Positions 796 through 47,760 of a stretch of DNA of 64,000 nt are shown here, in pieces; position 1 is the first letter of the stretch; each line of letters starts with the position of its first letter. Source of the stretch: Octopus vulgaris. Its lineage: Eukaryota. The notes beneath the pieces were generated by a model, which searched no databases, was not told the DNA's origin, and was given only the letters and a program-made list of their open reading frames with translations. The stretch spans positions 41,044,001 through 41,108,000 of the forward strand of contig OX597816.1 of assembly GCA_951406725.2 (NCBI GenBank), written 5' to 3'. The translations under genes and the position numbers were made by a program.

Positions 796-1197
796 AACTG
801 GTGATACTAGTTGCGGATTCTAGCTCGCTATGATACTGAGTTGAGTTGATGCCTTCTAGTATCTCAAAATTCAATATATAATCACTTATGATTATAGTAT
901 TCTACGCTGAAGAGAAAAGAAGTTTGGGTAACGTAGAATTATTTAATATTTAATTCTCATGCTTTCCTAAAAACTTGATTTCGAAACGTGCGTCCGTAGA
1001 TAACTTAAAATTGTATGATAGATTGCCGTCAATTCATTCTCTCTTACCTGTTTGTGTCTGCCTTCCAATTGCTGTGTTTTTTACTGAGATCTCCCTTTTT
1101 AGTAGAAGAAATAGCTATAACTCTTTGACTGCTATTTCTAAATTCGGTATGTGGTAAGGCAATTCGTTGCTAAACCCTTTATTGCTTAGTATTACTT
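796..1197 (+). mobile_element. Small non-coding HHR-bearing element between (TA)n tracts
   Basis: About 400 nt of unique sequence bounded by (TA)n and containing a complete hammerhead motif. Confidence 0.6.
901..1000 (+). ncRNA. Type I hammerhead ribozyme, canonical core, long helix II
   Basis: UCUACG-CUGAAGA-GAAA..(AAGUUU/AAACUU, AGAAUUA/UAAUUCU)..UUUC-GAA-ACGUGCGU-C-CGUAGA; 6-bp perfect helix I, GUC cleavage triplet. Confidence 0.9.
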
Positions 1198-1210
1198 ATA
1201 TATATATATA

Positions 1211-1613
1211 GGTGCAGGAGTGGATGTGTGGTAAGTAGCTTGCTAACCAACCACATGGTTCCGGGTTCAGTCCCACTGCGTGGCATCTTGGGCAGGTGTC
1301 TTCTACTATGGCCTCGGGCCGACCAATGCCTTGTGAGTGGATTTGGTAGACGGAAACTGAAAGAAGCCTGTCGTATATATGTATATATATATATGTATGT
1401 GTGTATATTTGTGTGTCGGTGTTTGTCCACCTAGCATTGCTTGACAACCGATGCTGGTGTGTTTACGTCCCCGTCACTTAGCGGTTCGGCAAAAAAGATC
1501 GATAGAATAAGTACTGGGCTTACAAAGAATAAGTCCCGGGGTCGATTTGCTCGACGAAAGGCGGTGCTCCAGCATGGCCGCAGTCAAATGACTGAAACAA
1601 GTAAAAGAATAAA
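1211..1613 (+). mobile_element. Full-length tRNA-derived SINE
   Basis: A/B-box-like head, CORE-like segment, internal microsatellite, 3' end CAGCATGGCCGCAGTCAAATGACTGAAACAAGTAAAAGA; multiple copies in the window. Confidence 0.9.
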
Positions 1614-1647
1614 AGAATATATGTATGTATGTATAGGTTAATTGAAA

Positions 1648-2098
1648 TACGTTTGTCACATATTTCAGCTGCTAAAGACAAATACACTGCAGTTACCATG
1701 GAGAAAAATCTCTCTAATTGTAAAAAAGGTGTGAAAACACCAGTTCGATCAGTGTCGCCATCTGTTAAGAATCTCAGACATCAATGTTTCGAGTTTTTTT
1801 TTTTTTACTCTTGTCAATGAGATGTACCTAAGTGACGCAACTCTGAATGATCTAAAGAAAACTTGTAGCTTTATATATACTTCAGTCAATACGTTGACTG
1901 ATTTTCTCTAGTAGATAGCCCGATGGAGATAAATAACGAAACATTGGCGCAAAGCAATTTTTAGGTATGGGCACAATTTAGGTTATTTGAAATATGGTTG
2001 TCCCGTATTGCAACTGCTAAAGGCAAATACACTGCAGTTTTTCTCCATGGTAACTGCAGTGTATTTGCCTGTAGCAGTTGAAATATGTGAGAAACATG
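1648..2098. mobile_element. MITE-like element with about 60-bp terminal inverted repeats
   Basis: 1650-1708 (TCACATATTTCAGCTGCTAAAGACAAATACACTGCAGTTACCATGGAGAAAAA) is inverted at 2038-2098; a partial third copy lies at 2011-2037. Confidence 0.7.
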
Positions 2099-3361
2099 CC
2101 TGTTCTATAAAGAACTATGTTATTACAGATGTTAGTGGCAAAAATTATATTATTGTATACTACTTATATATCGTCTAGAGATTTTAAAACTACCTACTTT
2201 GCTCGCATATATATATATATATATATATATATATATATATATATATATATATATATATATGTCTGTGTGTGTGTGTGTGTGTGTGTGTGTGTGTGTGTGT
2301 GTATGTATGTGTGTGTATGTTTGTGTGTGTTTATGTGTGTGTGCATATATATATTTATGTACGTGTATATACATGTTTATATGCATAGCACGCACGTACG
2401 CACGTACATATATTTAGTTTTATTGCACCTATGTCAGCGGCGGTCTGTAGGTACGAAATAATACACATTGTTACTAGCGATATAGTTAGGCATATTGTTA
2501 TTTGCATGACTGGATCAATGATTGCGTTTGTTCATCTGTTTGCGTATATTGATTGGATGCTGTGCTTCTTATCTTTTCATTGGTTATTGAGCTTTTTCTT
2601 GTGTTCAGTGCTGGGTGACCGTATATTTAATTTGCTAATGATTTCTTTGTAATGGACTATATTTTCATATGTATGTGCGTGCAGGGTTTGTAAAGTGGTA
2701 TATGTTTTGAGAGGACGTATTTTGGAATGATCTGAAGTTTAAACCTAATTAATGTTATATCTACCTATTGTAATTCATCACCCTCGTGACTGTATCATTC
2801 AGAAGAATGGTGTCATCCAGAAGAAGCGTTATGTATTTATTCTGCCCCAAAAAAGAGAAAAAAATGTGTCCGTACTTGCGTGTAATCATTTTGTATTTCC
2901 TGTCTTTGTATGTATCTAGAATTTAGTATACTTGATATGTTTTAAAGAAATATTTCTCTGTATAACTGCGTGCGTTGGGTGAGATGATTTGACTTTGGTA
3001 TTCTCCTAGAGAACTTAGCCATCATATACTCGCACATGCACAATGTTTTCAAAGCATGAAGACAGAATTTCGTCTCTAAAGTCTCAAACATCTGTAACCA
3101 CACCAAATACACACATACATACACACCAACGAAAAGATAAAAATAAAAACTCAGATGTTTATACATTACATACATAAACCGTTACTATTAAATCATTAAC
3201 TACATATACACGTAAGCCACTCGCATCAGAACGATTCATTAAAAATATATCGACTAGCAATAGATATACCATAATTAAGTTCAAGGGGAAAAAATACAAA
3301 TAAATACTTGTACAAAGATTCACGCACGTAAACACTCACATATATTTATATATATATTAAA

Positions 3362-3948
3362 AACTAGCAGTATCGCCCGGCGTTGCTCGGGTTTGTAAGG
3401 GAAATAACTATACAGCATTTTTAGAGAGTTATAGCCAAAAAATAGCCAAAAAATGCATTAAAAATGGAAAAAATATGATGGTAATTTTGTTTTAAATCGT
3501 TGACTCATCGTAGACATTTTTAGAGAGTTACTTCCCTTTAAAAAAATATGCATGAAAATGGAAAAAAATGATGGTAAATTATTTTTAAAATCGTAGACTC
3601 ATCGTAGACGCGCGCTAATACCCAGAAGGGCTCGATATGAATCACGACTATAAGATACCCGGTTTTGGTTAAACAGCACCGCAAAATGTGGGAGTAGTTA
3701 GGAATCTAAATCGAAGGGGACAGACAGAATCCGATGTTTTCCATACAAACTCATTTAGTCAAGTACTACTCCATAGATGTATGTCTAAGTGTTTTCACAT
3801 CTAAAGCCAATCATAAAGAAACCCTCTCAAACCAACGAGCCTTGTTGTGTTAAGCTAAATCAGCTTACATATACGTACTTGGAAATAGCAAAAACACCAC
3901 CATCCATTTACAAAATATTCATATAAAACTACAGTTTTATATATTAAA
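3362..3948 (+). mobile_element. Helentron-associated non-autonomous element (HINE/DINE-1-like)
   Basis: 5' AACTAGCAGTATCGCCCGGCGTTGCTCGGG hairpin, internal direct repeats, GGACAGACAGA microsatellite and 3' CAGTTTTATATAT end typical of such elements. Confidence 0.6.
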
Positions 3949-4446
3949 AATATATTCTGTAGTTACTGACAAATAACAAATACCTATCCAAGCACTCATC
4001 CCATATCTGTACAATTATCGTCCCAGACATAAAAACAAGTATAACCTCTCATCAACACTTACGCGCTCCACTTGTACACATACAAAAGTATCAACCATAC
4101 AAAATTCTAAAGTGTTACAAGCGGAGGAAATACAAAGCATCCATACATACATAGGCATACAAAAAAAAACATACGCACAGGTGCACATACACACACATGC
4201 ACACACAAATAACCTTTTCAACACGAAATACAAAATTCAACCACAATGTCAAAATCCGAAGTTTTCCATACAAACTCATTTAGTCAAGTACTACTCCATA
4301 GATGTATGTCTAAGTGGTTTCACATCTAAAGCCAATCATAATCAAACTCTCTCAAATCAATGAGCTTTGTTGTGTTAAGCTAAATCAGCTTACATATACG
4401 TACTTGGAAATAGCAAAAACACCACCATCCATTTGCAAAATATTCA
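3728..4446 (+). repeat. About 194-bp direct duplication (3728-3921 vs 4253-4446)
   Basis: AATCCGA.GTTTTCCATACAAACTCATTTAG...CCATTT.CAAAATATTCA occurs twice with a few mismatches. Confidence 0.9.
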
Positions 4447-46680: not shown

Positions 46681-46689
46681 TTTCCCCAA

Positions 46690-46735
46690 GACACCTGATG
46701 AAGGCTGGGGCGTATATTAGCCGAAAATTTGTGTT
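46690..46735 (+). ncRNA. Minimal hammerhead, canonical core plus extra A after A9
   Basis: GACAC-CUGAUGA-A-GGCUGG(loop)UUAGCC-GAA-AAUU-U-GUGUU; followed by about 50 nt and then (TTC)n. Confidence 0.8.
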
Positions 46736-47139
46736 AACAACAAAGTGAGGATAAATACCCGTCAAATATAAATAATGTAAATATTCTTCTTCTTCTTCTT
46801 CTTCTTCTTCTTCTTCTTCTTCTTCTTCTTCTTCTTCTTCTTCTTCTTCTTCTTCTTCTTCTTCTTCTTCTTCATCTTCTTCTACTTCTTCTTCTTCTTC
46901 TTCTTCATCTTCATCATCATCTTCTTCTACTTCTTCTTCTTCTTTTCTTTTTCTTATTATTATTATTTACCTGTAGTCTGCATGTTTTGTTACAATCACT
47001 GGGCGACACACACCCAGCGTCCTTGGGCGAGTGAAGGATAAGAAATGTTACAGTACGACTGAAAGCTTGGGGAGGGAAGGTGGTATGGGTAGTAGCAAAA
47101 TAACCTTTTTATAATACAACACAGATATTTACGTTGGTA

Positions 47140-47545
47140 AGGTTTTTTTTAAAGGATGTGTGTAGTGCTTGTCAGCACAATCTTTTGGATTTCTCTGAGA
47201 CATGGTTCTCCTGGGATACTATCTATATGTTTCTCACATCCCTTTCCCATAATACCTAGGGCACCCACAATAAAGGAATAGTTCTCGCCTTAAGATGCTA
47301 CATCTTTTGTATTTCAATTTCCAGTTTTCAAATTGAATTAAGTTGTCAAATTCCTTTACAGATATAATTTTATCAGTGAGAACACTTACTCCTTTTAGTC
47401 TACAAACAATTTCTTCTCTGTCTTTAGAGATTGTCTATTCAATTAGCTTGGATCGTTCTGTCGATGCTGACTGGTAAATCCCAGAGGATAGTGACATTTT
47501 TACCTTCAGCGACTGGTTCAGGATGTTGTTCATACCAGTAAGCAA
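47140..47545 (-). pseudogene. R4/Dong-like LINE endonuclease-end fragment
   Basis: WYEQHPEPVAEGKNVTILWDLPVSIDRTIQAN, then IPFIVGALGIMG; 5' end abuts (TAA)n. Confidence 0.7.
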
Positions 47546-47656
47546 GAGTAGTGATTTTGTTGTTATTATTATTATTATTATTGCAGCGTGGAAGGTGTTT
47601 ATAAGCCATTAAGAAACACACAAAACCGTTAGATTCACTTCAACATTTAAATTTAA

Positions 47657-47707
47657 TTTGTCAAAATATTTTCGTCGCTTGGAGACCGCGACCTGTTCAC
47701 TGACAAA
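47657..47707 (-). ncRNA. Hammerhead G3-C8 variant (left arm)
   Basis: Mirror of 47710-47760. Confidence 0.8.
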
Positions 47708-47709
47708 GC

Positions 47710-47760
47710 TTTGTCAGTGAACAGGTCGCGGTCTCCAAGCGACGAAAATATTTTGACAAA
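47710..47760 (+). ncRNA. Hammerhead G3-C8 variant (right arm)
   Basis: UUUGUCA-GUGAACA-G-GUCGC GGUCUCCAA GCGAC-GAA-AAUAUU-U-UGACAAA; differs from the 14669 copy only in loop II. Confidence 0.82.

What the first reader, a model, noticed from the sequence alone, without database searches (positions are those of the whole stretch)
901..47760. Helix III is self-complementary in nearly every family, suggesting obligate dimeric ribozymes
Seen: the helix III segments are ACGUGCGU (palindromic with G-U pairs), ACGU, AAUAUU, ACAAUUGU, ACCAUGGU (x2), ACAGCUGU, AGUACU and AAUU, plus the imperfect AGAACU. The sequences are unrelated but share the property, and the 4-nt ones cannot close a hairpin. Established: double-hammerhead folding via palindromic helix III is known for ASBVd and newt satellite 2 and was proposed for PLE HHRs. 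Inference: cleavage needs two same-family copies, such as tandem pLTRs or multimeric transcripts, so the palindrome would act as a family-specific pairing code.
Basis: partly seen in the sequence, partly recalled or inferred. Interest (0 to 1): 0.75.

Follow-up and report, generated by a model that had tools for sequence, protein, structure and literature searches.

The report
Dimer-type hammerheads of Penelope-like retroelements
The window holds many small self-cutting-type RNA motifs left by jumping genes, most with a self-complementary third stem that likely lets two copies pair up to cut, which is an already published design, and unrelated families share the same stem, so it is not a family-specific code.

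Summary
I mapped 19 type I hammerheads of 12 families; 11 families have a self-complementary helix III. A descriptor blind to helix III gave 9 of 11 palindromic hits in the window (shuffles: 0.03) and 40 of 61 in 1.6 Mb sampled across the genome (shuffles: 0.9). The innermost pair, which no monomer can form, is Watson-Crick in 11 of 12 families, with four pair types: the signature of double-hammerhead pairing. That design is published for Penelope-like elements (Cervera and de la Pena 2014; Lunse 2016, title and reviews only). The new claims fail or weaken. Unrelated families share ACGU, ACAGCUGU, ACAAUUGU and ACGCGU; compatible pairs are no rarer than chance. Eight-base stems can close a 2-bp tetraloop hairpin, so 'obligate' fits only the 4-6-base ones. 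Any family specificity would come mostly from the swapped stem I. A young family of about 3000 copies has a fixed non-palindromic AGAACU and, in its youngest layers, A9 changed to C. The scan reached the same verdict on other genomes before.

The parts
901..1000 (+). Type I hammerhead, helix III ACGUGCGU, long helix II; single truncated copy of a ~594-bp tandem non-coding repeat family whose other subfamily has ACGUACGU
1771..1823 (-).
   Evidence: no second copy looked for
5994..6020 (-). Minimal hammerhead, decayed helix III ACAU (family of 16030)
12244..12291 (+). Hammerhead, helix III ACAGCUGU; old family, 56 of 97 genome matches intact (by eye)
14676..14712 (+). Hammerhead, G3-C8 core, helix III AAUAUU; 97 of the first 100 of 1662 matches intact
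16030..16056 (+). Minimal hammerhead, U4C core, helix III ACGU; 91 of the first 100 of 5725 matches intact
16410..16503 (+). Hammerhead with damaged core (position 4 is A), helix III ACAAUUGU
22917..22974 (+). Hammerhead, helix III ACCAUGGU; 2 of 2 genome matches carry it
30805..30838 (-). Hammerhead of the inverted 5' copy of the Penelope-like element; non-palindromic AGAACU, C at position 9
33127..33160 (+). Hammerhead in the upstream pLTR; non-palindromic AGAACU, C at position 9, U at 17
33254..37170 (+). Penelope-like ORF (reverse transcriptase with one in-frame stop; GIY-YIG-like C-terminus in another frame) between direct pLTRs 33106-33342 and 37659-37894
   Evidence: the GIY-YIG reading is by eye
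37680..37713 (+). Hammerhead in the downstream pLTR; AGAACU, core further damaged (position 5 is A)
38061..38120 (+). Hammerhead, helix III ACCAUGGU, U3 opposite G8; 4 of 4 genome matches carry the palindrome
38501..38604 (-). Hammerhead, helix III ACAGCUGU, 85-nt helix II domain; left arm of a 1.6-kb inverted repeat
39594..39697 (+). Same motif, right arm of the inverted repeat 38295-39903
40375..40409 (-). Hammerhead, helix III AGUACU, in the inverted copy upstream of the second Penelope-like ORF
40740..42920 (+). Penelope-like open frame, 726 aa stop to stop, RVT_1 and GIY-YIG
43420..43454 (+). Hammerhead, helix III AGUACU, in the 3' pLTR; 92 of the first 100 of 1681 matches intact
46695..46730 (+). 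Minimal hammerhead, helix III AAUU: a doubly changed copy of an ACGU family
47664..47700 (-). Hammerhead, AAUAUU, left arm of a head-to-head inverted pair
47717..47753 (+). Hammerhead, AAUAUU, right arm; a read-through transcript folds as one long hairpin

Best explanation
These are type I hammerhead motifs carried by the terminal repeats of Penelope-like retroelements and related non-coding repeats, and their self-complementary helix III is likely kept because two copies fold as a double hammerhead and would cut each other. In that fold helix III of copy A pairs with helix III of copy B and the stem I strands are swapped, so a homodimer needs a palindrome, and partner choice would depend on helix III plus both stem I duplexes. 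The palindrome word drifts between families by paired changes and is often shared. Selection would act on the transcribed source elements in tandem; most genomic copies, including those here, are solo or inverted leftovers that decay. Shown: motifs, palindromy above chance, covariation, sharing. Inferred: dimer cleavage, strand swap, inactivity of these copies.
For: Palindromy above shuffles in window and genome sample. Innermost pair Watson-Crick in 11 of 12 even-length families, types TA 4, CG 3, GC 2, AT 2, p about 5e-6 if families were independent; 20 of 22 loop-locked pairs Watson-Crick. Nearest-neighbour energy favours the double hammerhead over two monomers by 11-17 kcal/mol for the six 6-10-base palindromes of the 9 motifs tested, and it equals the cofold minimum for 907 and 43420. 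Two families flank RT + GIY-YIG frames. The subfamily change in the 907 family (A to G) keeps pairing by G-U. Same-strand neighbours within 10 kb: 51 of the first 100 matches in the 907 family, 18 of 100 in the AGTACT family with 4271-bp units (by eye). Literature: palindromic 15.2-16.2 and loop 3, inactive monomer, weakly active dimer and trimer (PMC4209133, results and discussion read).
Against: No cleavage was measured here. The AGAACU family (2997 + 537 matches under two overlapping patterns) is successful without a palindrome, and 87 of the first 100 copies with canonical A9 already carry AGAACT. One multi-copy family has an odd-length helix III with a variable centre (F5). For the two 4-base motifs the energy model does not favour the dimer (+1.9 and +5.6 kcal/mol). 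15 of 61 sample hits are non-palindromic (8.6 expected as false hits). Families are not phylogenetically independent, so the p value is too small. In four families only 0-4 of the first 100 matches have a same-strand neighbour (exact patterns miss mutated partners). An anole PLE hammerhead cleaved only with the element's protein, and ribozyme mutants still inserted in vitro (PMC11167929, passages).
Confidence: 0.85

Rival explanations
1. One reading: every family is an obligate dimer and the palindrome is a family-specific code that keeps families from pairing.
For: 312 of 325 family pairs are not helix-III compatible in register, and 20 of 26 words are distinct.
Against: Compatible pairs (13) exceed the random-palindrome null (3.1; 7.5 with C15.2 fixed); after dropping four probable relatives 7 against 2.1 or 5.2: no sign of avoidance. 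The two most numerous families counted here (5725 and 4897 matches) both use ACGU. Of 13 compatible pairs only 4 also keep 3 or more stem I pairs at both swapped sites, so stem I does most of the sorting. AGAACU is not palindromic.
Confidence: 0.07
2. The 8-10-base families work mainly as monomers with a 2-3 bp helix III and a tetraloop, and dimers only add speed.
For: These stems close 2-3 bp with a 4-nt loop. Invertebrate retrozyme hammerheads cleave well as monomers and a 2-bp tetraloop form gives 22% (PMC7229834, passages).
Against: A monomer puts no constraint on pairing inside the loop, yet the loops are palindromic with different words; the monomer hairpins are unstable (+1.0 to +2.2 kcal/mol).
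Confidence: 0.2
3. The palindromes are an artefact of how the motifs were picked (A15.1-U16.1 is required, and readers favour palindromes).
For: For 4-base words only one pair is free; the AAUU copy is a chance palindrome.
Against: Helix-III-blind scans with shuffled controls in the window and in 1.6 Mb.
Confidence: 0.02
4. The palindrome is kept for a DNA- or protein-level role (a binding or cleavage site for the dimeric element protein, or RNA dimerisation for packaging), not for catalysis.
For: The anole PLE protein is predicted to be a dimer and ribozyme mutants still insert in vitro (PMC11167929, passages); the youngest AGAACU layers spread with a changed core.
Against: The word sits exactly between A14 and the cleavage base, varies in length and sequence, and tolerates G-U pairs, which points to RNA pairing in hammerhead register; cores keep compensated 3-8 pairs.
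Confidence: 0.08

Closest known systems
Minimal and small-helix-III hammerheads in pLTRs of metazoan Penelope-like elements (Cervera and de la Pena 2014, PMC4209133; abstract, results, discussion and part of methods read)
   Same: Type I topology, extra base between 9 and 10.1, U3-A8 core variant, palindromic 15.2-16.2 and loop 3, many families per genome, mostly solo copies, opposite-strand pairs 100-700 bp apart, dimer model.
   Different: Other genome; here also G3-C8 and U4C cores, helix II domains of up to 100 nt, and one family with a fixed non-palindromic helix III and A9C.
[quoted passage not shown]
   Same: Palindromic very short stem III, dimer cleavage, tandem arrangement.
   Different: Could not read it, so cannot say whether it tested mixed-family dimers.
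Non-LTR retrozymes and newt/axolotl satellite 2 hammerheads (Cervera and de la Pena 2020, PMC7229834, passages)
   Same: The 907 family is a non-coding tandem repeat with one type I hammerhead per unit and a palindromic tetraloop on helix III.
   Different: Unit is about 594 bp, above the reported 170-400 nt RNAs; long helix II; circular RNA not shown.
Double hammerhead of ASBVd (Forster et al. 1988; via review PMC6466107, passages)
   Same: Short unstable stem III rescued by merging two stems III.
   Different: Viroid RNA, not a genomic retroelement.

Membership tests
PLE-type minimal/short-helix-III hammerhead | Conserved core (3-9, G12-A15.1, U16.1-H17) with a paired 3-8 | tested here: met
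   met in 14 of 19 motifs (C-G, U-A or G-C at 3-8, U or C at 4); not met in the three AGAACU copies (C9) and 16410 (A4); 38061 has U3 opposite G8.
PLE-type minimal/short-helix-III hammerhead | Type I topology with stem I of about 4-7 bp and a helix II | tested here: met
   4-7 contiguous pairs in 14 of 19; 3 in the AGAACU copies and 2 in 38604/39594, each followed by further pairs after a mismatch (by eye).
PLE-type minimal/short-helix-III hammerhead | Palindromic 15.2-16.2 and loop 3 | tested here: met
   11 of 12 window families. Not met in the AGAACU family.
PLE-type minimal/short-helix-III hammerhead | Located in pLTRs beside an RT + GIY-YIG ORF | tested here: inconclusive
   Shown for 2 of 12 families (AGAACU and AGUACU). 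The other ten were not traced to an ORF.
PLE-type minimal/short-helix-III hammerhead | Cleaves as a dimer, not as a monomer | not testable with these tools
   Only folding energies.
Non-LTR retrozyme (907 family) | Non-coding tandem repeat with one type I hammerhead per unit | tested here: met
   594-bp spacing, arrays of 2-4; coding capacity judged by eye only.
Non-LTR retrozyme (907 family) | Unit of about 150-450 bp | tested here: not met
   Unit 593-596 bp; so called retrozyme-like, not filed as a member.
Non-LTR retrozyme (907 family) | Abundant linear and circular monomer RNA | not testable with these tools
   Only contigs were available.
Rfam hammerhead families | Covariance-model match | tested here: not met
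   No hammerhead row among the 150 shown of 162 matches at E<=1.

The most novel reading that the evidence does not exclude
Helix III together with the swapped stem I forms an address that decides which transcripts cut each other, so a few distinct families with compatible addresses (4 of 325 pairs) could cleave one another in trans; and the youngest AGAACU lineage spread to thousands of copies after losing first the palindrome and then A9, a natural case of a Penelope-like element escaping or discarding its ribozyme.
Probability: 0.15. Interest if true: 0.5.

Novelty: already known. Interest (0 to 1): 0.17.

Why it matters
The core point is published, so its value is confirmatory: a family-level covariation test in one more genome. 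What the hammerhead does for Penelope-like elements is still open (PMC8557442, passages). Two by-products make that testable: families that share a palindrome but not stem I separate the two pairing terms, and the AGAACU family offers three age layers with a progressively altered ribozyme.

Tried and rejected
Rfam scan: no hammerhead row among 150 of 162 shown. The repeat finder was swamped by microsatellites; a masked self-BLAST replaced it. First descriptors were too strict. The BLAST-type genome search was not used for conservation counts because the query contained helix III. AATT versus ACGT as a compensatory change: rejected, 0 AATT in the first 100 matches; that list does not reach the window's own copy. 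AGAACU as copy decay: rejected. Inverted pairs as dimer partners: rejected, they lie on opposite strands and 47581-47837 folds as one hairpin of -217 kcal/mol. Selection for orthogonal palindromes: no support. Sequencing runs for one 907-family unit: no RNA holder listed; contigs of four runs cannot show cleavage ends. Literature: 'A9C' with hammerhead, core, cleavage gave 0 papers; 'family-specific' + 'palindrome' + hammerhead + Penelope gave one Schistosoma paper, listing only; heterodimer search gave none on point by listing; hammerhead + octopus + Penelope gave only PMC8557442. Lunse 2016 is not held, so a claim that mixed-family tests are absent from print cannot be made. No supplements were read; supplementary alignments of PMC4209133 may already show the shared words. 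Six other window repeats were checked for a core hexamer only, without follow-up. Rows left out of the 26-family set: eight singletons and others judged by eye to be false hits or unsupported (F12, F14, F15, F17-19, F22, F24-27, F29, F30), most of them non-palindromic.
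Full report
Setting. The window is G000:C3:41044001-41108000 of a 2.8-Gb genome in 227 contigs, rich in microsatellites. Earlier scan notes call it octopus-like; I did not test that. Two frames match reverse transcriptase, one also GIY-YIG (40740-42920: RVT_1 2.7e-6, GIY-YIG 1.3e-4; 35228-36862: RVT_1 0.0012). Self-BLAST shows the Penelope-like layout: direct repeats 33106-33342 and 37659-37894 around one ORF, with inverted 5' copies, the arrangement described in PMC8557442 (passages).

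Observation. A descriptor that ignores helix III content gave 11 window hits, 9 palindromic, against 1.27 and 0.03 in 30 shuffles. On 160 evenly chosen 10-kb stretches it gave 61 hits: 30 Watson-Crick palindromes, 10 with G-U, 6 odd-length self-complementary, 15 other; 20 shuffles gave 12.15 hits with 0.6, 0.3, 0.7 and 8.6. The property is real and genome-wide.

Is it dimer pairing? A monomer needs a loop of at least three bases, so the innermost pair of an even word cannot form within one molecule. Among 13 multi-copy families (F0-F11, all hit in the random sample, plus the AGAACU family added by hand), 12 have even length; 11 have a Watson-Crick innermost pair of four types, p about 5e-6 at genome composition, and 20 of 22 loop-locked pairs are Watson-Crick. 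Caveats: families are related, and F11 is one inverted insertion. Monomer helix III is 0 bp for 4-base words, 1 bp for 6-base, 2 bp for 8-base and 3 bp for 9-10-base. Of 9 motifs evaluated, the double hammerhead beats two monomers by 11-17 kcal/mol in the six with 6-10-base palindromes and by 8.8 for AGAACU, but not for the two 4-base motifs (no tertiary terms, and the 4-base monomer has no helix III at all). In the double fold A15.1 of one copy pairs with U16.1 of the other, which also swaps the stem I strands; this follows from the topology.

Conservation among copies (patterns with helix III left free; first 100 listed matches, counted by eye). AATATT 97 of 100, 1662 matches. ACGT in the 16030 family 91 of 100, 5725. 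AGTACT 92 of 100, 1681. ACAGCTGT of 12244: 56 of all 97. ACCATGGT: 2 of 2 and 4 of 4. A separate ACAATTGT family: 43 of 49 with the outer four bases fixed. The 907 family (447 matches) has ACGTACGT in 13 of 15 loci and ACGTGCGT in 2. Old copies lose the palindrome freely, as dead insertions would; the constraint shows between families, not among copies.

Is it a family code? For 26 representative families (11 from the window, 15 from the sample; exclusions listed under Tried and rejected) 13 of 325 pairs are fully helix-III compatible; only 4 of these keep at least 3 stem I pairs at both swapped sites. Random palindromes of the same lengths give 3.1 compatible pairs, or 7.5 with C15.2 fixed; without four probable relatives 7 against 2.1 or 5.2. 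So there is sharing at or above chance and no sign of avoidance; 21 of 26 have C at 15.2. Pairs sharing a word with no BLAST similarity over about 300 nt: 16030/46695 family, 12244/39594, 16410/F28, F6/F31.

Are partners available? Same-strand neighbours within 10 kb among the first 100 matches: 0 (AATATT), 0 (16030 family), 4 (46695 family), 4 (AGAACU), 18 (AGTACT, 4271-bp units), 51 (907 family, 594-bp units) (by eye, exact patterns miss mutated partners). In the window the only direct pair of one insertion is 33127/37680, and its downstream core is damaged. The four inverted pairs are on opposite strands; 47581-47837 folds as a single hairpin. The window's copies most likely do not cleave in cis (inference).

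The exception. The family of the window's longest element has AGAACT in 98 of the first 100 of 2997 matches and C at core position 9 in 98. A pattern demanding A9 finds 537 matches, 87 of the first 100 also AGAACT. Pairwise distances over 155 nt: A9/C17 median 0.068 (14 copies), C9/C17 0.026 (14), C9/U17 0.000 (17, some being arms of one insertion). The non-palindrome came first and the core change later, in layers that look younger. That A9 matters for catalysis is recalled, not from a call; a search for A9C found no paper. This weakens any claim that dimer cleavage is needed for spread and fits the in vitro result that ribozyme mutants of an anole element still insert (PMC11167929, passages).

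Known work. [quoted passage not shown] A 2019 review (PMC6765202, passages) states that PLE hammerheads have a palindromic short stem III and form dimers, citing Lunse 2016, which I could not read. Axolotl 2-bp tetraloop motifs cleave 22% as monomers (PMC7229834, passages). Earlier notes of this scan on other genomes reached the same verdict; my reading was stated before seeing them.

Verdict. Observation confirmed; mechanism is the published double hammerhead (confidence 0.85); 'obligate' only for the short words; 'family-specific code' not supported for helix III alone. Already known; interest 0.17.

Noticed in passing
window 30805-30838, 33127-33160, 37680-37713; genome-wide: A young Penelope-like family of about 3000 copies has a fixed non-palindromic helix III, and its two youngest layers carry C instead of A at core position 9, the youngest also U at 17: possible ribozyme decay in a spreading lineage.
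   Followed up: partly
window 901-1000; L191-L205: Retrozyme-like tandem repeat with a 594-bp unit, a long helix II and ACGUACGU; 447 matches, half of the first 100 in arrays, often with an inverted copy; a diverged relative in L250.
   Followed up: partly
window 16030, 12244, 43420; families F3, F5, F9: C at core position 4 recurs in at least five families and is subfamily-linked in the AGTACT family; not checked in print.
   Followed up: no
L104, L107, L240, L242, L256 (family F5); L074: Odd-length helix III, self-complementary around one variable central base.
   Followed up: no
L193:1290-1880: Two runs guessed to be RNA show 45 and 36 A>G places against 8 and 8 in two other runs, which would fit A-to-I editing of these repeats; run type is a guess and no matched DNA run is known.
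   Followed up: no
window 38295-39903 and 47581-47837: Near-perfect inverted repeats with 4-6 nt between the arms, each arm carrying a hammerhead.
   Followed up: partly
window 18793-19533 (-): Open frame with several C2H2 zinc fingers, probably a host gene exon.
   Followed up: no
window 56878-57416: Element with about 200-bp terminal inverted repeats, MITE- or mariner-like by eye.
   Followed up: no
window 131-257, 1211-1601, 7967-8086, 47924-48347, 59177-59557; 26299-26995: Dispersed SINE-like repeat and a tandem cluster of about 110-bp units.
   Followed up: no
window 60243-61193 (-): Frame with a zf-RVT domain, likely a non-LTR retrotransposon remnant.
   Followed up: no
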